Of a DNA stretch of 64,000 nt, positions 9,424-41,424 are shown piece by piece (within the stretch, counting starts at the first letter, position 1; every line of letters starts with the position of its first letter). Where the stretch lies: the NCBI RefSeq assembly GCF_055900595.2, contig NZ_CM148325.1, one strand, 5' to 3'. Position numbers and translations under genes: made by a program. The notes under the pieces are model-generated. The model was not told the origin of the DNA. It did not search any database and saw only the letters and a program-made list of their open reading frames with translations.

Positions 9424-10728
9424 ATGCACGCACGTTCAGCGAGAGAGATTAATCAATGCTACCGGACATTACGTCCGCGATTGCTGATGTGCATGATTAT
9501 TGGCTACGCCGCATTTTATCTGACGCGAAAAAGCGTGAATTACGTCCTTCCGGCGCTGCAAACCGACCTCGGACTGGATAAAGGCGACATTGGCCTGCTG
9601 GGTTCGCTGTTTTATCTCAGCTACGGATTGTCGAAATTTACCGCCGGACTGTGGCATGACAGCCACGGACAACGCGGTTTTATGGGCGTCGGCTTGTTCG
9701 CCACTGGGCTATTGAACATGGTGTTTGCCTTTGGCGAATCACTTACGCTTCTGCTTGTGGTCTGGACACTGAACGGTTTTTTTCAGGGCTGGGGATGGCC
9801 ACCGTGTGCCCGCTTACTGACCCATTGGTACTCCCGTAATGAACGTGGTTTCTGGTGGGGCTGCTGGAATATGTCGATCAACATTGGCGGAGCGATTATT
9901 CCGCTGATTAGCGCCTTTGCCGCCCACTGGTGGGGCTGGCAGGCCGCGATGCTGACACCGGGGATTATCAGCATGGCATTAGGGATCTGGTTAACGCTAC
10001 AGCTTAAAGGCACACCCCAGGAAGAGGGATTACCGACGGTGGGTCAGTGGCGTCACGATCCGCTGGAATTACGTCAGGAACAACAAAGTCCGCCGATGGG
10101 GCTGTGGCAAATGTTGCGAACCACAATGCTGCAAAATCCGATGATCTGGCTGCTGGGTGTCTCTTATGTACTGGTTTATGTGATCCGGATTGCGCTAAAC
10201 GACTGGGGCAATATCTGGCTGACGGAAAGCCACGGCGTCAACCTACTCAGCGCCAACGCCACGGTAATGCTGTTTGAAGTGGGCGGCTTACTCGGCGCGT
10301 TATTTGCCGGATGGGGTTCGGATTTGCTGTTTAGCGGGCAGCGAGCCCCCATGATTTTGCTGTTTACCCTTGGGTTGATGGTTTCGGTCGCTGCACTCTG
10401 GTTGGCACCGGTTCATCACTATGCCCTTCTGGCTGTGTGCTTTTTTACTGTGGGCTTTTTTGTCTTTGGCCCGCAAATGCTGATTGGACTTGCGGCAGTG
10501 GAATGTGGACACAAAGCTGCGGCGGGTTCAATTACCGGATTTCTCGGCCTGTTCGCCTATCTCGGTGCGGCGCTGGCAGGCTGGCCGTTGTCGCTGGTTA
10601 TCGAACGCTACGGCTGGTCAGGAATGTTCAGTTTACTCTCGGTCGCCGCAGTACTTATGGGTTTACTGCTGATGCCGTTACTGATGGCGGGCATCACCAC
10701 CACTCACGCTCGAAGGATAAAACAATGA
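9424..10728 (+). CDS. MFS-family sugar-phosphate sensor/transporter homologue, UhpC-like
   Basis: ORF 9412-10728; strong similarity to UhpC (e.g. FGPQMLIGLAAVECGHKAAAGSITGFLGLFAYLGA); start set at ATG 9424 which has a GGAGA SD, 9412 is the alternative. Confidence 0.8.
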   Translation: MHARSAREINQCYRTLRPRLLMCMIIGYAAFYLTRKSVNYVLPALQTDLGLDKGDIGLLGSLFYLSYGLSKFTAGLWHDSHGQRGFMGVGLFATGLLNMVFAFGESLTLLLVVWTLNGFFQGWGWPPCARLLTHWYSRNERGFWWGCWNMSINIGGAIIPLISAFAAHWWGWQAAMLTPGIISMALGIWLTLQLKGTPQEEGLPTVGQWRHDPLELRQEQQSPPMGLWQMLRTTMLQNPMIWLLGVSYVLVYVIRIALNDWGNIWLTESHGVNLLSANATVMLFEVGGLLGALFAGWGSDLLFSGQRAPMILLFTLGLMVSVAALWLAPVHHYALLAVCFFTVGFFVFGPQMLIGLAAVECGHKAAAGSITGFLGLFAYLGAALAGWPLSLVIERYGWSGMFSLLSVAAVLMGLLLMPLLMAGITTTHARRIKQ

Positions 10729-11756
10729 AAATGCCCCTTACCTCTACTCTGATTGCTTCTGCCGTTGCGCTGGCAACCTTAACGGGTGCCGCACAAGCGA
10801 AAGGTCGACTGGTGGTCTATTGCAGCGCCACTAATGAAATGTGTGAGACCGAAACCAAAGCGTTTGGCGAGAAATATGATGTGAAAACCTCGTTTATCCG
10901 CAACGGCTCCGGTAGCACCCTGGCAAAAGTCGATGCTGAAAAGAAAAACCCACAGGCTGACGTCTGGTACGGCGGCACCTTAGACCCGCAGTCGCAGGCC
11001 GGCGAGATGGGCCTGTTACAGGCATATAAATCGCCTAACCTTGAACAGATCATGGAAAAATTCCGCGATCCGGCAAAAGTGAAAGGAAACCTTTCCTCCG
11101 CCGTTTATGTGGGGATCCTCGGGTTTGGCGTCAACACAGAGCGTCTGAAAGAGAAAAACCTGCCTGTGCCGAAGTGCTGGAAAGATCTCACCAAACCTGA
11201 ATATAAAGGCGAAATTCAGATTGCCGATCCACAAAGTTCCGGTACCGCCTACACCGCGCTGGCTACCTTTGCGCAGCTGTGGGGGGAAGATCAGGCCTTT
11301 GATTATCTAAAACAACTTAACACCAACGTCTCCCAGTACACCAAATCAGGCATTGCCCCGGCACGTAACGCCGCCCGCGGCGAAACGGCGATTGGTATTG
11401 GCTTCCTGCATGACTACTCGCTGGAAAAAGAACAGGGTGCGCCGCTGGAGTTGATTTCCCCGTGTGAAGGTACGGGCTACGAAATTGGCGGCGTCAGCAT
11501 TCTGAAAGGCGCGCGCAACCTCGACAACGCCAAACTGTTTGTGGACTGGGTATTATCAAAAGAAGCTCAGGAACTGGCGTGGAAGAAAGGGAAGTCTTAT
11601 CAGATCCTGACCAATACCACCGCCGAAACGTCGCCAAATTCGCTGAAGCTCGACGACCTGAAATTAATCAACTACGACATGGATAAATACGGTTCCACGG
11701 ATGTTCGTAAGGCATTGATTAATAAATGGGTCAGCGAAGTGAAGATGGGTAAATAA
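10725..11756 (+). CDS. afuA: ABC transporter periplasmic binding protein, AfuA/FbpA family
   Basis: 344 aa with signal peptide MKMPLTSTLIASAVALATLTGAAQA; AAGGA SD upstream; ATGA overlap with the UhpC-like stop; the track's longer ORF from 10437 is a frame extension. Confidence 0.8.
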   Translation: MKMPLTSTLIASAVALATLTGAAQAKGRLVVYCSATNEMCETETKAFGEKYDVKTSFIRNGSGSTLAKVDAEKKNPQADVWYGGTLDPQSQAGEMGLLQAYKSPNLEQIMEKFRDPAKVKGNLSSAVYVGILGFGVNTERLKEKNLPVPKCWKDLTKPEYKGEIQIADPQSSGTAYTALATFAQLWGEDQAFDYLKQLNTNVSQYTKSGIAPARNAARGETAIGIGFLHDYSLEKEQGAPLELISPCEGTGYEIGGVSILKGARNLDNAKLFVDWVLSKEAQELAWKKGKSYQILTNTTAETSPNSLKLDDLKLINYDMDKYGSTDVRKALINKWVSEVKMGK

Positions 11757-11824
11757 ACCCGCATTGCGTGCATTTGCCGGGCGCAGCACAAACGCCTGCC
11801 CCGGCCAACCATACCGGAACTGCT

Positions 11825-13903
11825 ATGTCACAGACACTTGCACTCCATCCCGTGAAAAAGCGGGATGCGATTTTCCTTTGGGTTTTGCTGGGCTGGCTGG
11901 CATTTATCCTGTTGCCGAGCTGGAGCCTCGATTATGGCCTGCTGGAGTCCACGAGTGATGAGATCCTCGAGGCTTATGGCTGGTCGCATTTTAATATCAG
12001 CTGGCTGTGGTATTTATTACCGAGTCTGTTGCTGGTTCGTCCGTTTCGTGAGGCCACACGCGAACAGCGTAGTCGTCATTATTTTGATGCCAGTTGGGCA
12101 TTGCTCTGTATGGCGTTTATCGTCATCAGCGCCACCGTGGCTGGACGCGGTTTAGGCTACGCCGCCATCGTGCTGTTTATCGAATTAAGCGCGATAATGA
12201 CGCTGGCCTTAACCCGCCTCGAATGGCTGGGTGGCGACCGCTTTGTGATCGGCTCGCTGATTGCGATTGTGGCGCTGATTGGCATTTTTATCGTCTGGCC
12301 GAGCATCGCCATTTTTATCCCGATGTTCACCAACGACGCGGGAGAGTTCGCCCCACTGGCGTTTATGAATGTGCTCTCGCAGGCCCATATCATTCAGGTG
12401 ATCGTCAACTCTATCGTCTTATCGATAGCGGTGGGTATTGGCTGTACTTTCTTCGGTCTGGTGCTGGCGATATATACCACGCGCATCGCTAAACGCAGCG
12501 CCGTAATCGGCCGCATCTTTTCCATTCTGCCAATTGTCACGCCACCGTTTGTGGTCGGCTTAGGCGTTACGCTCATGATGGGGCGCTCCGGCTACATAAC
12601 GGAATTTATGGTGGAGTGGTTTGGGCTGACCAACACCAACTGGCTGTATGGTTTTACCGGGATCTGGCTGGCACAGGTCCTGGCATTTACGCCAATGGCT
12701 TTTATGATCCTCGATGGGGCCATTAAAACCATTCATCCCTCGCTGGAAGAAGCCTCCTACACCCTGCGCGCCAGCCGCTGGCAAACCTTTAACGGTGTGT
12801 TTGTGCCGTTGTTAAAGCCCGCGCTTGCCAATGCCTTTTTAATCGTTGTGGTGCAGTCACTGGCTGACTTCAGTAACCCGCTGGTGCTTGGCGGCAACTT
12901 CGACGTACTGGCGACGCAAATTTACTTCTACATTACCGGCTCGCAGCTGGATTATCAGGCCGCCAGCACCCTTGGCGCTTTCCTGCTGCTGTTCTCGCTA
13001 CTGGTGTTCTGCGTCCAGTATATGTGGATTGGTAAACGCTCTTACGTCACGGTTTCCGGAAAGTCCTACCGCGGCGATGTCCAGCCACTACCGGTCACCC
13101 TGGTGTGGAGCGTGGTCGCCATACTTGCGATATGGATTGCCTTTAACGCCCTGCTCTATGGCAGCATTTTCTACGGCAGCTTCACTGTGAACTGGGGCGT
13201 TGACTACACCCTGACGCTGGATAACTTTATCAAGTTATTTGGTCAGGGGATGAGCGACGGCGCGTGGCCTTCACTGTTAGATACCTTGCTCTACGCCGGG
13301 ATTGCCGCCCCCATTACCGCTATCTTTGGCCTGCTCATCGCCTGGGTGGTGGTGCGCCAACAATTCAAAGGCAAAAAGACCATAGAGTTCACCACCATGT
13401 TGTGCTTTGCCGTACCGGGTACAGTGGCGGGTGTCTCGTATATTCTTGCCTTTAATAGCGCCCCGGTCTATCTCACCGGAACGGCAGCAATTGTGATTAT
13501 TTCGATGGTGATGCGCAACGTTCCGGTGGGTATTCGCGCCGGGATTGCAGGTCTGGGGCAGATCGACAAATCGCTGGATGAAGCCTCACTTAGCCTGCGT
13601 GCGGGTTCCCTGCGAACCATTACGCACATTTTACTGCCGTTGTTACGCCCAGCTATTCTCTCGGCCCTGATTTACAGCTTTGTGCGGGCTATCACGACGG
13701 TCAGCGCCATCGTCTTTCTCGTCACGCCGGACACACGCGTGGCAACCGCCTACATCCTTAACCGCGTAGAAGACGGCGAATATGGCGTAGCCATCGCCTA
13801 CGGTTCGATTCTGATCGTGGTGATGCTGGCGATTATTTTCCTCTTTGACTGGCTGATCGGTGAAGCACGTATTTCCCGTTCTAAAGCCAAAAACCAGGCG
13901 TAA
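11825..13903 (+). CDS. afuB: ABC transporter permease with two fused permease domains, AfuB/FbpB family
   Basis: About 692 aa polytopic protein; start chosen at ATG 11825 (MSQTLALHP), GTG 11768 is the alternative. Confidence 0.75.
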
Positions 13904-14961
13904 TGGAGCGCACTATGAGTCAGAAAAATTTTGTGGAACTGCGCAACGTCACTAAACGATTCGGCAGTAATAGGGTTATCGACAATATCAATCTCACCAT
14001 CCCACAAGGGCAAATGGTGACGCTGCTCGGTCCTTCCGGATGCGGCAAAACCACCATTCTGCGTCTGGTTGCCGGGCTGGAAAAACCGAGCGAAGGGCAA
14101 ATTTTTATAGATGGCGAAGATGTCACGCATCGTTCCATTCAGCAACGCGATATCTGCATGGTGTTTCAGTCATACGCTCTGTTCCCACATATGTCGCTGG
14201 GCGAAAACGTTGGCTATGGGCTGAAAATGCTTGGCGTGTCGCGTAGTGAAGTGAAGCAGCGGGTGAAAGATGCGCTAGCAATGGTGGATCTGGAAGGATT
14301 CGAAGACCGCTATGTCGACCAGATTTCCGGTGGTCAGCAACAGCGTGTGGCTCTGGCCCGTGCGTTGATCCTTAAGCCTAAAGTGCTGCTGTTTGATGAG
14401 CCGTTAAGTAACCTCGATGCCAACCTGCGTCGCAGCATGCGCGATAAAATCCGCGAGCTGCAAAAGCAATTTAACATCACTTCGCTCTATGTGACTCACG
14501 ATCAAAGTGAAGCTTTCGCGGTGTCCGACACCGTGTTGGTGATGAATAAAGGTCACATCATGCAGATTGGTTCACCGCAGGATCTCTATCGTCAGCCCGC
14601 CTCCCGCTTTATGGCAAGTTTTATGGGCGACGCCAACCTGTTCCCGGCGAACTTTAGCGAAGAGTATGTCGATATCTACGGTTATCGCCTGCCGCGCGCG
14701 GCGCATTTCCCGGCGCAAGGTAGCGGCACCGTCGGCGTTCGCCCGGAAGCCATCACCTTAAGCAATCACGGCGAAGAGAGTCAGCGTTGTGTTATTCGCC
14801 ATGTCGCCTACATGGGGCCGCAGTACGAAGTGACCGTAGAATGGCATGGTCAGGAGATTTTATTGCAAGTCAACGCCACCCGTTTACAGCCCGATATTGG
14901 TGAGCACTATTACCTCGAAATCCATCCTTACGGGATGTTTGTTTTAGCGGATGCGGCATAA
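13903..14961 (+). CDS. afuC: ABC transporter ATP-binding protein, AfuC/FbpC family
   Basis: 352 aa; Walker [10 protein letters not shown], signature [15 protein letters not shown], Walker B LLFDEP; TAATG overlap with afuB. Confidence 0.85.
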
Positions 14962-14973
14962 AAATAGCACATA

Positions 14974-15010
14974 AACGGTCCCAACCTGTCTTGAGGGACC
15001 GTTCACCTGT
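14974..15010 (+). terminator. Hairpin after afuC (AACGGTCCC / GGGACCGTT, 12-nt loop) followed by CACCTGTTT
   Basis: 9-bp perfect stem 13 bp after the afuC stop. Confidence 0.45.
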
Positions 15011-15045
15011 TTAGACGTCGGACAACAATTATTCTCAGGTGTTAT

Positions 15046-15094
15046 ATACTATAGGGGGGTATGCATTGACATATAGCATACCCCCCTATAGTAT
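15046..15094. promoter_or_regulatory. frmR operator/promoter: 19-bp perfect inverted repeat with G6/C6 tracts around TTGACA
   Basis: ATACTATAGGGGGGTATGC-N11-GCATACCCCCCTATAGTAT; centre holds consensus -35 TTGACA; lies 27 bp upstream of frmR ATG. Confidence 0.7.
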
Positions 15095-15120
15095 ATTGCG
15101 TGCAGATGATGAGGTGCGAA

Positions 15121-15396
15121 ATGCCCAGTACTCCGGAAGAGAAGAAAAAGGTCCTTACTCGAGTTCGTCGTATTCGGGGGCAAATTGATGCTCTGGAACG
15201 GTCGCTGGAGGGTGATGCCGAATGCCGTGCCATACTCCAACAGATCGCTGCCGTTCGGGGCGCGGCTAACGGGCTGATGGCAGAAGTGCTTGAAAGCCAT
15301 ATCCGGGAAACGTTTGACCGAAATGACTGCTACAGCCGCGAAGTCAGCCAATCCGTTGACGACACTATTGAACTGGTTCGTGCCTATCTTAAATAG
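15121..15396 (+). CDS. frmR: Formaldehyde-responsive transcriptional repressor (CsoR/RcnR family)
   Basis: 91 aa [31 protein letters not shown]...; the track ORF from GTG 15100 adds a 7-aa extension I do not use. Confidence 0.92.
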
Positions 15397-40175: not shown

Positions 40176-41424
40176 TGTTAGCCTCCACATGCGTCATTGC
40201 TGCTGTCGTTTTACGATTCAAAATCGGGTTAAGGATCAGATAGCTCAGCGCACCACCTAATACCGCGTTGACAGGAACAATACCCGGTAACCAGTGGCCT
40301 GCGGCAATCCCCAGCGCGACCGCCAGAATCGCCACCCAATTGACACTCATCATACGCGTGGTCGCAAAGTGCTCATAGCGGCGACGGTTCATCAGATAGT
40401 CGGCGATGATCACGCCACCCACCGGAGGAATAGCAGCCGAAAGGAAGGTTAGCCAGCCGACAAAATTGTTATACAGCCATAGTGCGCAGACCGTGCCGAT
40501 AATACCGTTGATTACTGAAAGAGTTTTGCTCGACATACCGGTAATGTTGGCGAAACCTAAACCCGACGCATAGAGTGCGTTATCGTTGGTGGTCCAGATA
40601 TTCAGCCCCAGCACCACAATCGCAGGCAGCAGCAGGCCCTGAGCAATCATCACATCAGAGATATCCGCCATCCCCAGTGCTGCAGCGCCCGCTGCACCGA
40701 AAATAAACATCAACGAGTTGCCGAGGAAAAAGGCCACCATCGCCACCAGCACCGCCAGTTTGGCATTGCGACCAAAGCGGACAAAGTCAGCGGTGAGCGT
40801 GCCCGCGCTGATAAATGACCCCACAACCAGCGCCAGCGCGACATTGAAATCTAACGGTTGTGCGGGAACGACCGCTTTTAATGCGTCCAGGCCGCCCATG
40901 CCGTTAACGGCCAGCCACACGGAATAACCGCCAAGACAGGCGATAGCCGGAACCGCAATCACCGAAAGAACTGTCAGCGCCGAAATGCCAAAGAAGACGG
41001 TGACGGTCATCAGTAAACCGGAAACGGCAATCAGCAAATTAATATCCAGCCCGGTTGCCTTGCCCACCGGAATAGCAAACATCGCCACGCCAACGCCAAA
41101 CCAGCCAACCTGAGTGCCGCCCAGCAGCAGTGAAGGCAACCATGAGCCTTTAACACCAAACGAGAAGCGAGCAAGAAGATGAGTGGTCAGGCCGGTTTTT
41201 GCGCCAATGTAACCAAGAAATGAAGTGTAAATACCGAGGAGAAGATTACCGATGAGGACTGCGAGGAAGAAATCATGATAGCTAAGACCGGTTCCGAGAG
41301 TGCCGCCGGTCCACATACTGGCGGAAAAGAAGGTTAATCCCAGCATGACGAACGTCAATGCCAATACCCCTTTCCGCGCCGACTGCGGGACTGGCCCCTG
41401 GCTAAAGTTGTTATCTTGCGACAC
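40165..41424 (-). CDS. codB: Cytosine permease
   Basis: 419 aa [30 protein letters not shown]... Confidence 0.94.

What the first reader, a model, noticed from the sequence alone, without database searches (positions are those of the whole stretch)
10725..10728. UhpC-like sensor gene and afuA overlap by ATGA, implying co-transcription of sensor and transporter
In the classical uhp system the sensor genes uhpABC form one operon and the transporter gene uhpT has its own UhpA-dependent promoter. Here the UhpC-like stop overlaps the afuA start (ATGA), and afuB/afuC also overlap, so the sensor homologue appears translationally coupled to the importer. The regulator and kinase overlap too (TAATG). 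The whole 7.8-kb block could therefore be one or two autoregulated transcripts.
Basis: seen in the sequence. Interest (0 to 1): 0.3.

Follow-up and report, generated by a model that had tools for sequence, protein, structure and literature searches.

The report
Sugar-phosphate sensor gene joined to importer operon
The four-base overlap is real and is the ordinary joint of an operon in which a UhpC-type sugar-phosphate receptor gene is transcribed with the AfuABC sugar-phosphate importer, apparently from a uhpT-like promoter; this is the E. coli "OI-20 / FusKR" island, so the published "fucose sensor" looks like the control arm of that importer.

Summary
The ATGA at 10725-10728 is real. TGA ends the UhpC-like gene (9424-10728) and ATG starts afuA (10725-11756). 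The afuA start and its AAGGA ribosome site are kept in all 80 related Enterobacterales loci. The overlap itself is clade-specific: 22 loci have ATGA, 9 have TAATG and 46 have gaps of 0-60 nt without terminators. The stable feature is tight linkage.

The window is E. coli, and the block is O-island 20 of EHEC: FusR, FusK, Z0461 and AfuABC, at 95-99% protein identity to the Sakai strain. The six-gene order held in every fetched locus with enough flank.

The only conserved gap, about 84 nt between the kinase and uhpC', carries a promoter laid out like K-12 PuhpT:
- a CRP-like box inside the kinase 3' end, the same 91 nt from the -10 as the K-12 site;
- a CCAGG/CCTGG palindrome;
- TCTCA, 27 nt before the -10 in both promoters.

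The best model is therefore two units: regulator-kinase, then uhpC'-afuABC, which puts the co-receptor inside the operon it controls. No transcript was mapped here. The overlap is ordinary; the inferred regulatory link is moderately interesting.

The parts
7078..7095 (+). Conserved upstream element TGTTAC-N8-CATA ahead of the regulator promoter (possible weak CRP-like site; function unknown)
   Evidence: Conserved in the alignment of 76 regulator-upstream regions although the upstream neighbour genes differ between genera.
7111..7138 (+). Sigma-70-like promoter of the regulator-kinase unit: TTGCCA, 16-nt spacer, CATGAT
   Evidence: Found by the consensus scan. Both hexamers are conserved across genera as aTtgCca ... 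GCAT.AT.
7169..7798 (+). Response regulator (FusR / UhpA paralogue): receiver domain plus GerE-type helix-turn-helix
   Evidence: Pfam Response_reg and GerE. Best NCBIfam hit is UhpA at 193 bits, below the 258 cut-off. 96% identical to Sakai ECs_0418 and 49% to K-12 UhpA.
7798..9339 (+). MASE1 histidine kinase (FusK / UhpB paralogue); its start overlaps the regulator stop by 1 nt (TAATG)
   Evidence: Pfam MASE1, HisKA_3 and HATPase_c. UhpB model 373 bits, below the 408 cut-off. 95% identical to Sakai ECs_0417 and 33% to K-12 UhpB. Overlap seen.
9300..9315 (+). CRP-like box TGTTAACCTGCCCACA inside the kinase 3' end; predicted centre about -103.5 from the inferred start of transcription
   Evidence: Its centre lies 91 nt from the -10, exactly as for the K-12 PuhpT CAP site, whose centre near -103 is published (PMC5352689). 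It is the strongest synonymous-site constraint in the whole kinase gene: 0.92 against a mean of 0.65. It is the only match to TGTKA-N6-YCACA in the 64-kb window.
9340..9356 (+). Putative regulator-binding palindrome CCAGGAA-AAA-GTCTTAG, immediately after the kinase stop codon
   Evidence: Conserved in all aligned loci. It is a perfect AACCAGGAAT-A-ATTCCTGGTT palindrome in Buttiauxella, and the halves change symmetrically to CTAGG...CCTAG in Rahnella, Ewingella and Brenneria. Unique in the window, with 0.11 matches expected by chance. It resembles CCAGG-N5-CCTGG in K-12 PuhpT.
9372..9379 (+). Near-invariant TCTCATCC element near -35, possibly a promoter-proximal weak regulator site
   Evidence: Invariant in nearly all loci. 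TCTCA lies 27 nt before the -10 in both this promoter and K-12 PuhpT.
9399..9404 (+). Predicted -10 hexamer TATAGT; inferred start of transcription near 9411
   Evidence: The pattern TA-A-T (TAYANT) is conserved across genera. The promoter scan missed it because there is no -35 match, as expected for an activator-dependent promoter.
9424..10728 (+). UhpC-type MFS receptor gene (Z0461 orthologue), with Shine-Dalgarno GGAG at 9414-9417. The ATG at 9412 is E. coli-specific and probably not the start.
   Evidence: NCBIfam UhpC model 588 bits, above the 564 cut-off. 99% identical to Sakai ECs_0416, 53% to K-12 UhpC and 29% to UhpT. Equivalents of UhpT R46, K82 and R275 are kept, and the D388/K391 positions are UhpC-like. 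Conserved start and Shine-Dalgarno seen; PGAP start.
10713..10717 (+). Shine-Dalgarno AAGGA of afuA, inside the end of the uhpC' coding sequence
   Evidence: Conserved in all 80 loci whether the junction is an overlap or a gap. The region is not sequestered in RNA structure (z = +1.09).
10725..10728 (+). ATGA stop/start overlap between uhpC' and afuA (the finding)
   Evidence: The junction class across 79 loci is given.
10725..11756 (+). afuA, the periplasmic sugar-phosphate-binding protein; signal peptide of about 24 residues
   Evidence: E = 3e-170 to PDB 4R72-4R75, A. pleuropneumoniae AfuA. H229, D230 and E253 are invariant; with an inferred offset of +24 for the signal peptide they correspond to the paper's ligand residues H205, D206 and E229. 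98.5% identical to Sakai AfuA.
11776..11805 (+). REP-like G+C-rich hairpin in the 68-nt afuA-afuB spacer; possibly stabilises the upstream mRNA
   Evidence: Predicted stem GCCGGG.GCAGG/CCUGCCCCGGC. A weak, sub-threshold Rfam match to the naRNA4 family at 11733-11806 (E = 0.98). The resemblance to REP elements is by eye.
11825..13903 (+). afuB, a fused double permease
   Evidence: Two BPD_transp_1 stretches. PGAP start. 98% identical to Sakai ECs_0414.
13915..14961 (+). afuC, the ATPase with a TOBE domain, with Shine-Dalgarno GGAG at 13905-13908; 11-nt spacer after afuB
   Evidence: The NCBIfam profile begins at the methionine of 13915. PGAP uses this start. This start and Shine-Dalgarno are conserved, while the ATG at 13903 is clade-specific.
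14974..15003 (+). 9-bp G+C-rich hairpin after afuC; likely end of the operon but a weak terminator with no clear T run
   Evidence: Fold. It is followed by the frmR promoter at 15066-15094.

Best explanation
The ATGA is the first internal joint of a four-gene operon, uhpC' (Z0461)-afuA-afuB-afuC. This operon belongs to a six-gene module that is conserved across Enterobacterales and corresponds to O-island 20 of EHEC.

Proposed mechanism:
1. The regulator (FusR, a UhpA paralogue) and the MASE1 kinase (FusK, a UhpB paralogue) are made from their own sigma-70-like promoter at 7111-7138.
2. A second promoter lies in the ~84-nt kinase-uhpC' spacer and is laid out like the classical uhpT promoter. 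It has a CRP-like box centred near -103.5 (9300-9315), a CCAGG/CCTGG-type palindrome for the regulator (9340-9356), a TCTCA element 27 nt before the -10, and a -10 TATAGT with no -35.
3. This promoter drives uhpC'-afuABC when the regulator is phosphorylated and cAMP-CRP is present.
4. Ribosomes ending uhpC' at TGA stand on the afuA ATG, 7 nt downstream of a conserved AAGGA. Translation of afuA can therefore be coupled to uhpC' as well as started independently.
5. Because the UhpC-type co-receptor is inside the operon it helps to switch on, induction should feed back positively on sensor sensitivity. Read-through from the kinase gene, where no terminator was found, would supply the basal receptor.

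Shown here: gene boundaries, orthology, conserved synteny, junction geometry, the conserved promoter-like elements and their spacing relative to K-12 PuhpT, and published co-expression of Z0461 and afuA.

Inferred: the transcription start, binding of the regulator and of CRP, activation rather than repression, sugar phosphate as the signal, translational coupling, and the feedback loop.
For: Boundaries and overlap.

Identity of the island: 95-99% protein identity to Sakai ECs_0413-0418, at the same site between tauA and frmR. Sit et al. place afuABC on OI-20 together with the FusKR system (PMC4546632).

Family assignments:
- UhpC model passes its cut-off, and UhpT R46/K82/R275 equivalents are kept.
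- The kinase has the MASE1 architecture of UhpB.
- AfuA matches 4R72-75 at E = 3e-170, with its ligand residues invariant.

Synteny and spacing in 80 loci from many genera:
- All loci with enough flank have the order regulator-kinase-UhpC'-AfuA-B-C.
- The uhpC'/afuA junction is -4 to +60 nt in 77 of 79 loci.
- The kinase-uhpC' gap is 72-96 nt in all but a few (median 85).

Promoter in the kinase-uhpC' spacer:
- The palindrome, TCTCATCC, -10, Shine-Dalgarno and start codon are conserved.
- CRP-box centre to -10 is 91 nt, and TCTCA to -10 is 27 nt, in both this spacer and K-12 PuhpT. The K-12 CAP site centre near -103, upstream of the UhpA sites, is published (PMC5352689).
- Codons in the CRP-like box are almost fixed (0.95-1.0), and this is the top synonymous-constraint window of the kinase gene.

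Nothing separates uhpC' from afuA:
- No synonymous constraint in the uhpC' 3' end.
- No promoter- or terminator-like hit at the junction.
- No terminators in the larger gaps of other genera.
- The afuA ribosome-binding region is unstructured.

Expression:
- ECs0416 and ECs0415 fall in the same cluster and are induced at glucose exhaustion, by log2 3.55 and 5.21 (PMC2241611). This fits cAMP-CRP control.
- Z0461 and afuA each appear in four differential-expression lists with similar fold changes in bovine gut contents (PMC6199705 supplement).
- Z0463 alone is listed as RpoS-dependent (PMC2907692), which fits a separate regulator promoter.
Against: No transcript, transcription start or protein-DNA contact was measured here. 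All promoter elements are predictions, and I chose them by eye before measuring the spacings.

The palindrome differs from the K-12 element. Its CCAGG/CCTGG cores are 7 nt apart rather than 5, and it lies 11 nt further from the TCTCA element.

The published model says FusK senses L-fucose and that FusKR represses z0461. I have this from Pacheco et al. 2012 as reported in PMC6199705 and PMC11644481; the original paper was not readable here. Repression is the opposite sign from a UhpA-like activator.

afuA signal exceeds Z0461 signal in both transcriptomes: base mean 261 against 178, and 37-fold against about 12-fold. An extra afuA promoter could explain this as well as differential mRNA stability or processing could.

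The 4-nt overlap itself is not conserved, so coupling by overlap cannot be essential to the module.

A metagenome contig encoding a 73%-identical AfuA (L085, organism not determined) has afuA without any uhp-like genes nearby.
Confidence: 0.72

Rival explanations
1. There is one 7.8-kb transcript. All six genes are read from the promoter upstream of the regulator, and the 84-nt kinase-uhpC' spacer has no promoter of its own. Its conservation would then reflect something else, such as RNA processing or translation signals.
For: No terminator-like site lies between the kinase gene and uhpC', so read-through is likely to occur at some level. All six genes rise in some of the bovine-content conditions.
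Against: The spacer carries a -10, a palindrome and a CRP-like box with PuhpT-like spacing, plus DNA-level constraint reaching into the kinase coding sequence. The genes behave differently: Z0463 alone is listed as RpoS-dependent. ECs0416 and ECs0415 appear among the genes induced at glucose exhaustion, while the kinase tag ECs0417 had no occurrence in that paper; the regulator tag ECs0418 was not searched.
Confidence: 0.1
2. The overlap does not mean co-transcription. afuABC would mainly be expressed from its own promoter buried in the 3' part of uhpC', and the ATGA would be only compact packing.
For: afuA signal is higher than Z0461 signal in two data sets. A 73%-identical afuA occurs without uhp-like neighbours on a metagenome contig, so afuABC can work as a self-standing operon; A. 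pleuropneumoniae afuABC cloned alone is also functional.
Against: No sigma-70-like match on the + strand lies in 9424-10725. The last codons of uhpC' show no synonymous-site constraint (0.46-0.96, average about 0.69), unlike the CRP box in the kinase gene. Junctions of 0-20 nt in 34 loci leave no room for a regulated promoter. The REP-like hairpin after afuA offers another reason for higher afuA mRNA.
Confidence: 0.08
3. This is the published OI-20 model. FusK senses L-fucose directly and FusR is a repressor of ler, z0461 and the fuc genes. Z0461 is a fucose importer. afuABC is a functionally separate neighbour that happens to share the transcript.
For: The experimental claims of Pacheco et al. 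2012 as summarised in PMC6199705 and PMC11644481. The proteins here are 95-99% identical to the EHEC ones.
Against: Z0461 passes the curated UhpC model and keeps the sugar-phosphate-binding arginines. The kinase is a MASE1 protein like UhpB; from my own knowledge, not tested here, UhpB depends on UhpC for sensing. The six genes travel together in all fetched loci with enough flank (78 with the kinase, 75 also with the regulator), out of 438 species-level AfuA hits. These include genera known mainly from plants and insects, such as Rahnella, Erwinia, Brenneria, Pantoea and Buttiauxella; whether they carry the LEE was not checked. The target promoter has the layout of an activated PuhpT, not of a repressed promoter. 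None of this disproves the fucose experiments.
Confidence: 0.15

Closest known systems
Classical E. coli K-12 uhpABC-uhpT hexose-phosphate sensing and uptake system
   Same: - A NarL-type regulator, a MASE1 kinase and a UhpC-type MFS receptor, in the same gene order.
- The same 1-nt TAATG overlap between regulator and kinase.
- A target promoter with a CRP site 91 nt before the -10, a CCAGG/CCTGG repeat, TCTCA 27 nt before the -10, and no -35.
- The substrate class of the target transporter is sugar phosphates.
   Different: - Paralogues, not orthologues: 49%, 33% and 53% identity. The regulator and kinase score below the curated UhpA and UhpB cut-offs.
- The regulated promoter sits between the kinase and uhpC' (gap about 84 nt), not between uhpC and the transporter gene. 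In K-12 the uhpB-uhpC gap is 9 nt and the uhpC-uhpT gap is 137 nt. The receptor gene is therefore inside the regulated operon.
- The target is an ATP-driven ABC importer rather than the UhpT antiporter.
- The palindrome cores are 7 nt apart instead of 5.
AfuABC sugar-phosphate ABC importer (A. pleuropneumoniae and C. rodentium; Sit et al. 2015, PMC4546632)
   Same: AfuA matches the solved structures at E = 3e-170 and keeps the three sugar-coordinating residues. The permease is a fused double domain and the ATPase has a TOBE domain. The C. rodentium orthologue from the same island was shown to bind glucose-6-phosphate and to rescue a uhpT mutant.
   Different: That paper treated afuABC as the operon and did not discuss the UhpC homologue upstream or how the operon is regulated. 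A metagenome contig with a 73%-identical AfuA has no uhp-like neighbours.
FusKR 'fucose-sensing' two-component system and Z0461 of EHEC O-island 20 (Pacheco et al. 2012)
   Same: Orthologous genes at 95-99% identity at the same chromosomal site.
   Different: The published signal is fucose, the regulator acts as a repressor, and Z0461 is called a fucose importer. The sequence evidence here points instead to a Uhp-like activator circuit for a sugar-phosphate importer. The locus is also far more widespread than 'EHEC O157:H7 only': 518 of 5426 complete E. coli genomes and many genera.
Translationally coupled operon junctions with ATGA overlap (for example tauC/tauD and mhpD/mhpF/mhpE in this same window)
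   Same: A 4-nt stop/start overlap with the Shine-Dalgarno inside the upstream gene.
   Different: Nothing unusual. Here the overlap joins a signalling component to a transporter component, and it is replaced by short gaps in related genera.

Membership tests
Uhp-type three-component sugar-phosphate sensor (UhpA/UhpB/UhpC) | MFS (organophosphate:phosphate antiporter family) receptor of the UhpC subfamily | tested here: met
   NCBIfam NF008661 scores 588.1 bits against a cut-off of 564. 53% identical to K-12 UhpC against 29% to UhpT. Equivalents of R46, K82 and R275 are kept, and the residues at UhpT D388/K391 are UhpC-like.
Uhp-type three-component sugar-phosphate sensor (UhpA/UhpB/UhpC) | MASE1-HisKA_3-HATPase kinase equivalent to UhpB | tested here: inconclusive
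   The domain architecture is identical. The UhpB equivalog model scores 373 bits, below its 408 cut-off, and identity is 33%. This is a paralogue, not an equivalog.
Uhp-type three-component sugar-phosphate sensor (UhpA/UhpB/UhpC) | NarL/FixJ-type regulator equivalent to UhpA | tested here: inconclusive
   Receiver plus GerE domains. UhpA is the best model, but at 193 bits it is below the 258 cut-off, and identity is 49%.
Uhp-type three-component sugar-phosphate sensor (UhpA/UhpB/UhpC) | Sensor genes form one constitutive operon, and the transporter gene has its own UhpA- and CAP-dependent promoter downstream of uhpC | tested here: not met
   uhpC' overlaps the transporter gene afuA by 4 nt. 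The PuhpT-like promoter lies upstream of uhpC'.
Uhp-type three-component sugar-phosphate sensor (UhpA/UhpB/UhpC) | Induction by external glucose-6-phosphate through UhpC | not testable with these tools
   This needs reporter or phosphorylation assays. The published signal for the EHEC orthologue is fucose.
AfuABC sugar-phosphate ABC importer | Binding protein with the sugar-coordinating His-Asp...Glu motif (H205, D206, E229 in the paper's numbering) | tested here: met
   H229, D230 and E253 are invariant in 13 genera. I equate them with the paper's residues by an inferred +24 offset for the signal peptide. Match to 4R72-75 at E = 3e-170. The motif is defined in PMC4546632.
AfuABC sugar-phosphate ABC importer | Fused two-domain permease and a TOBE-domain ATPase encoded downstream of afuA | tested here: met
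   Two BPD_transp_1 stretches in the 692-residue AfuB, and ABC_tran plus TOBE_2 in AfuC.
AfuABC sugar-phosphate ABC importer | Transport of glucose-6-phosphate, fructose-6-phosphate or sedoheptulose-7-phosphate | not testable with these tools
   This was shown for the A. pleuropneumoniae and C. rodentium systems. It is inferred here from 98-99% identity to the EHEC proteins and from the ligand-binding motif.
EHEC O-island 20 (FusR-FusK-Z0461-AfuABC) | Orthologous six genes between tauA and frmR | tested here: met
   Same flanking genes and order as Sakai ECs_0413-0418, with 95-99% protein identity.
EHEC O-island 20 (FusR-FusK-Z0461-AfuABC) | Fucose-dependent kinase autophosphorylation and repression of ler and z0461 | not testable with these tools
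   Known to me only through secondary reports. The original paper is not held.
Translationally coupled gene pair | Stop/start overlap with the Shine-Dalgarno inside the upstream gene | tested here: met
   ATGA at 10725-10728 and AAGGA at 10713-10717.
Translationally coupled gene pair | Downstream translation depends on translation of the upstream gene | not testable with these tools
   The ribosome-binding region is predicted to be unstructured, so independent initiation is also possible. A nonsense-mutation experiment is needed.

The most novel reading that the evidence does not exclude
The 'fucose-sensing' FusKR system of EHEC would in fact be the regulator-kinase pair of a Uhp-like three-component sugar-phosphate sensor that needs Z0461 (UhpC') as its receptor. 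Its ancestral and primary job would be to activate, together with cAMP-CRP, a uhpC'-afuABC operon, with the receptor under positive feedback. Control of the LEE and of fucose use in EHEC would be a secondary, lineage-specific add-on, or an indirect effect.
Probability: 0.35. Interest if true: 0.6.

Novelty: new variant of a known kind. Interest (0 to 1): 0.4.

Why it matters
The overlap alone is routine. What it points to has more consequence.

AfuABC is a colonisation factor in the C. rodentium model, and how it is regulated has not been described in the literature I could search. Its neighbours are cited as a fucose sensor that times EHEC virulence. If the six genes form one Uhp-like module, then:
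- sugar phosphates from damaged host or microbial cells could be a signal feeding into the FusKR pathway;
- the module would be a general Enterobacterales nutrient-uptake device rather than an O157-specific virulence island;
- it would be a natural example of a co-receptor placed inside its own target operon, which predicts positive feedback and possibly hysteresis.

All of this can be tested directly with simple reporter fusions.

Tried and rejected
- **Original FusKR paper.** Pacheco et al. 2012 could not be read, either as PMC3518558 or as PubMed 23160491. Olekhnovich & Kadner 2002 (PMC135017) could not be read either. Details of FusR/z0461 regulation and of the UhpA consensus therefore rest on secondary sources or my memory.
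- **Promoter and terminator scan of 6800-15200.** It gave no more hits than shuffled sequence and nothing at the junction. This is useful as a negative, but the scan cannot see activator-dependent promoters.
- **Rfam scan.** Only sub-threshold chance-level hits.
- **Folding of the afuA ribosome-binding region.** I looked for a structure that would enforce translational coupling and found none (z = +1.09).
- **Folding of the afuA-afuB spacer and the post-afuC region.** Both have hairpins, but their energies are not significant against shuffles.
- **Regulator palindrome upstream of the regulator gene.** I searched for it as a test of autoregulation and did not find it.
- **Search of 50%-identity representatives, to look beyond Enterobacterales.** The contigs returned were too short to be informative. 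One had afuA without uhp genes and the other was only 2 kb. The Vibrio arrangement I recall from memory could not be checked.
- **ATG at 9412 as the uhpC' start.** Rejected: it is present only in E. coli.
- **ATG at 10731 as the afuA start.** Rejected: it is not conserved.
- **ATG at 13903 as the afuC start.** Rejected: it is clade-specific.
Full report
**1. The observation**

The window reads aaacaATGAaaatg at 10720-10733. The TGA at 10726-10728 ends a 434/438-codon ORF, and the ATG at 10725-10727 opens a 343-codon ORF. RefSeq annotation of a 100%-identical E. coli genome uses exactly these boundaries, and so does E. coli O157:H7 Sakai (ECs_0416/ECs_0415).

In 80 related loci the ATG at 10725 and an AAGGA-type Shine-Dalgarno 7 nt upstream are always present. 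The second ATG at 10731 is not conserved. The overlap is therefore real.

It is not unusual. By my hand count from the annotation tables, 6 of about 44 co-directional neighbour pairs in this window have a 4-nt overlap. The other five are inside the tau, mhp and an ABC-transporter operon.

- The TAATG overlap of regulator and kinase is correct. It is the same as in K-12 uhpA/uhpB.
- The afuB/afuC overlap is not supported. The ATG at 13903 occurs in only one clade. The start that is conserved, preceded by GGAG, matched by the NCBIfam profile and used by PGAP, is 13915, which leaves 11 nt.

**2. What the block is**

The window is E. coli chromosome. The six genes lie between tauA and frmR, the same site as ECs_0413-0418 in Sakai. 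Protein identities to Sakai are 96, 95, 99, 98.5, 98 and 99%.

This is O-island 20, which has two separate literatures:
- afuABC encodes an ABC importer for glucose-6-phosphate, fructose-6-phosphate and sedoheptulose-7-phosphate, and it aids gut colonisation by C. rodentium (PMC4546632).
- The regulator and kinase are FusR and FusK, reported to sense fucose and to repress ler, z0461 and the fuc genes. Z0461 is called a fucose importer (Pacheco 2012, as summarised in PMC6199705 and PMC11644481).

What the sequences say:
- The MFS protein passes NCBI's curated UhpC model at 588 bits against a cut-off of 564. It is 53% identical to K-12 UhpC and 29% to UhpT. It keeps the equivalents of UhpT R46, K82 and R275, and it is UhpC-like at UhpT positions D388 and K391.
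- The kinase has the MASE1-HisKA_3-HATPase architecture of UhpB, and the regulator is a receiver-GerE protein whose best model is UhpA. Both score below the equivalog cut-offs, so they are paralogues.
- AfuA matches the solved A. pleuropneumoniae structures at E = 3e-170. Its three sugar-coordinating residues are invariant in 13 genera.

**3. Comparative anatomy**

A scan of one genome per species found AfuA relatives in 438 species. I analysed the 80 best loci, which come from Citrobacter, Klebsiella, Raoultella, Enterobacter, Lelliottia, Leclercia, Serratia, Buttiauxella, Rahnella, Erwinia, Pantoea, Brenneria, Yersinia and other genera. Every locus with enough flanking sequence has the order regulator-kinase-UhpC'-AfuA-AfuB-AfuC.

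Junctions:

| Junction | Result in the fetched loci |
|---|---|
| Regulator/kinase | Overlap of 1 nt, or 0 to -13 nt |
| Kinase/uhpC' | Gap of 72-96 nt in all but a few (median 85) |
| uhpC'/afuA | 22 loci -4 (ATGA), 9 loci -1 (TAATG), 34 loci +0 to +20, 12 loci +21 to +60, 2 larger |
| afuA/afuB | Median gap 69 nt |
| afuB/afuC | Gap 4-15 nt in most |

One of the two large uhpC'/afuA values looks like a disrupted uhpC' in C. youngae. The larger gaps contain no hairpin followed by a T run.

The conserved property is therefore tight linkage of uhpC' to afuA, not the overlap itself. The one spacer of conserved length lies between the kinase gene and uhpC'.

**4. The spacer looks like a uhpT promoter**

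Aligning 77 kinase-uhpC' spacers shows several conserved elements:
- Directly after the kinase stop there is a palindrome. It reads CCAGGAAAAAGTCTTAG in this window (9340-9356) and is a perfect AACCAGGAAT-A-ATTCCTGGTT in Buttiauxella. Both halves change symmetrically to CTAGG...CCTAG in Rahnella, Ewingella and Brenneria.
- TCTCATCC (9372-9379) is nearly invariant.
- TATAGT (9399-9404) fits a -10 of the form TAYANT.
- GGAG and the ATG at 9424 follow.

The palindrome is unique in the 64-kb window, where 0.11 matches are expected by chance.

Upstream, within the last codons of the kinase gene, lies TGTTAACCTGCCCACA (9300-9315). It differs from the CRP consensus TGTGA-N6-TCACA at two positions.

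I measured the same landmarks in K-12 PuhpT:

| Distance to the start of the -10 | This window | K-12 PuhpT |
|---|---|---|
| From the centre of the CRP/CAP box | 91 nt | 91 nt |
| From TCTCA | 27 nt | 27 nt |
| From the start of the CCAGG repeat | 59 nt | 48 nt |

The K-12 CAP site centre near -103, upstream of the UhpA sites, is published (PMC5352689). That validates the K-12 landmark.

For scale, my own arithmetic gives about 4e-4 as the chance that a 16-mer at one fixed position has two or fewer mismatches in the ten specified CRP positions.

An independent test was synonymous-codon constraint:
- The seven codons VIVNLPT that carry the box use one codon in 95-100% of 77 loci, except the Leu codon. 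Neighbouring four-fold codons are at 40-80%.
- A scan of all 213 informative codons of the kinase gene ranks 9295-9315 first, at 0.92 against a mean of 0.65.
- The same scan finds no such constraint in the last codons of uhpC'.
- The consensus scan finds no promoter-like site there either.

Upstream of the regulator gene there is a separate conserved sigma-70-like promoter, TTGCCA-N16-CATGAT at 7111-7138. It has a further conserved element (TGTTAC...CATA) but no copy of the palindrome.

**5. Expression data from the literature**

- In Sakai, ECs0416 and ECs0415 belong to the same expression cluster. They rise by log2 3.55 and 5.21 as glucose runs out (PMC2241611). A CRP-assisted promoter predicts this.
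- In EDL933 grown in bovine gut contents, Z0461 and afuA each appear in four differential-expression lists, with fold changes of 2.3-2.7 and 2.7-3.3. afuB and afuC are also up (PMC6199705 supplement).
- Z0463 alone is listed as strongly RpoS-dependent (PMC2907692).

These data fit two units, but they are not transcript maps.

**6. Model**

Two transcription units give the best fit.
- Unit 1 is regulator-kinase.
- Unit 2 is uhpC'-afuABC, driven by an activator- and CRP-dependent promoter of the uhpT type.

Within unit 2:
- The ATGA lets terminating ribosomes restart on afuA. The open, Shine-Dalgarno-bearing site also allows independent initiation.
- A REP-like hairpin after afuA could raise the amount of binding-protein mRNA relative to the membrane components.

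Compared with classical uhp, the regulated promoter has in effect moved from the uhpC-transporter spacer to the kinase-uhpC spacer. K-12 has a 9-nt uhpB-uhpC gap and a 137-nt uhpC-uhpT gap. The co-receptor is therefore induced together with the importer, which is a positive-feedback design. Read-through from the kinase gene probably supplies basal receptor. These last steps are inference.

**7. Conflict with the published picture**

The reported fucose signal, repressor action and 'fucose importer' role of Z0461 are not what the sequence families, the synteny in plant- and insect-associated genera, and the PuhpT-like promoter suggest.

I could not read the original paper, and nothing here disproves its experiments. 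The two views could coexist, for example if EHEC recruited the regulator for extra targets.

In the searchable literature only Sit et al. 2015 mentions FusK together with UhpB or UhpC, and that paper does not link them. The statement that FusKR is confined to O157:H7 (PMC11644481) is contradicted by its presence in 518 of 5426 complete E. coli genomes and in many genera.

**8. Verdict**

The interpretation of co-transcription is well supported indirectly, and two transcripts are more likely than one. One side claim, the afuB/afuC overlap, is wrong. The locus is a known island, but its reading as a Uhp-like circuit with the receptor inside the target operon appears not to have been described. 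I rate it a new variant of a known kind, of moderate interest.

Noticed in passing
window 11776-11805 (afuA-afuB spacer): A G+C-rich, REP-like hairpin sits in the 68-nt spacer after afuA. There is a weak, sub-threshold Rfam match to the naRNA4 family at 11733-11806 on the minus strand. The spacer is 53-139 nt in most related loci. It might stabilise the afuA part of the mRNA, as reported for some other binding-protein genes.
   Followed up: partly
window 15041-15097 (upstream of frmR): A long, near-perfect inverted repeat, ATATACTATAGGGGGGTATGC ... GCATACCCCCCTATAGTATAT, spans the frmR promoter (TTGACA-17-TAGTAT at 15066-15094). It looks like an operator of the G-tract type used by RcnR/FrmR-family repressors. 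It also produced a spurious microRNA hit in Rfam.
   Followed up: no
window 7078-7095: A conserved TGTTAC-N8-CATA element lies about 30 nt upstream of the -35 of the regulator promoter. It is kept across genera although the upstream neighbour genes differ. It could be a weak CRP-like or other regulator site.
   Followed up: partly
window 6900-15100, compared with 5426 complete E. coli genomes: The whole FusR-FusK-Z0461-AfuABC block is present in 518 of 5426 complete E. coli genomes, including dog and human isolates whose pathotype I did not check, and in dozens of other genera. A recent review states that FusKR is present in EHEC O157:H7, as an example of systems confined to a few hypervirulent serotypes.
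   Followed up: partly
window 9412-9423: An in-frame ATG lies 12 nt upstream of the annotated uhpC' start. It occurs only in E. coli (other genera have AAACGGAG there) and would sit at or next to the predicted start of transcription. It is probably not used.
   Followed up: yes
L012 (Citrobacter youngae ATCC 29220), uhpC' homologue: The reading frame of the UhpC' homologue hits a stop about 1 kb before afuA, although the junction sequence is intact. This could be a pseudogene or a sequencing error.
   Followed up: no
L085 (metagenome contig, AfuA 73% identical): Here afuA is followed by a second, paralogous binding-protein gene. It is preceded by divergently oriented genes whose Pfam hits are PRK (uridine-kinase-like) and DCD (dCTP-deaminase-like), with no uhp-like genes nearby. 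The linkage to a Uhp-type sensor is therefore not universal.
   Followed up: partly
window 41282-41298 (minus strand): This is the only other near-match (one mismatch) to the regulator palindrome pattern in the window: CTCGGAACCGGTCTTAG. It is probably chance; 3 of 100 shuffles gave two matches.
   Followed up: no
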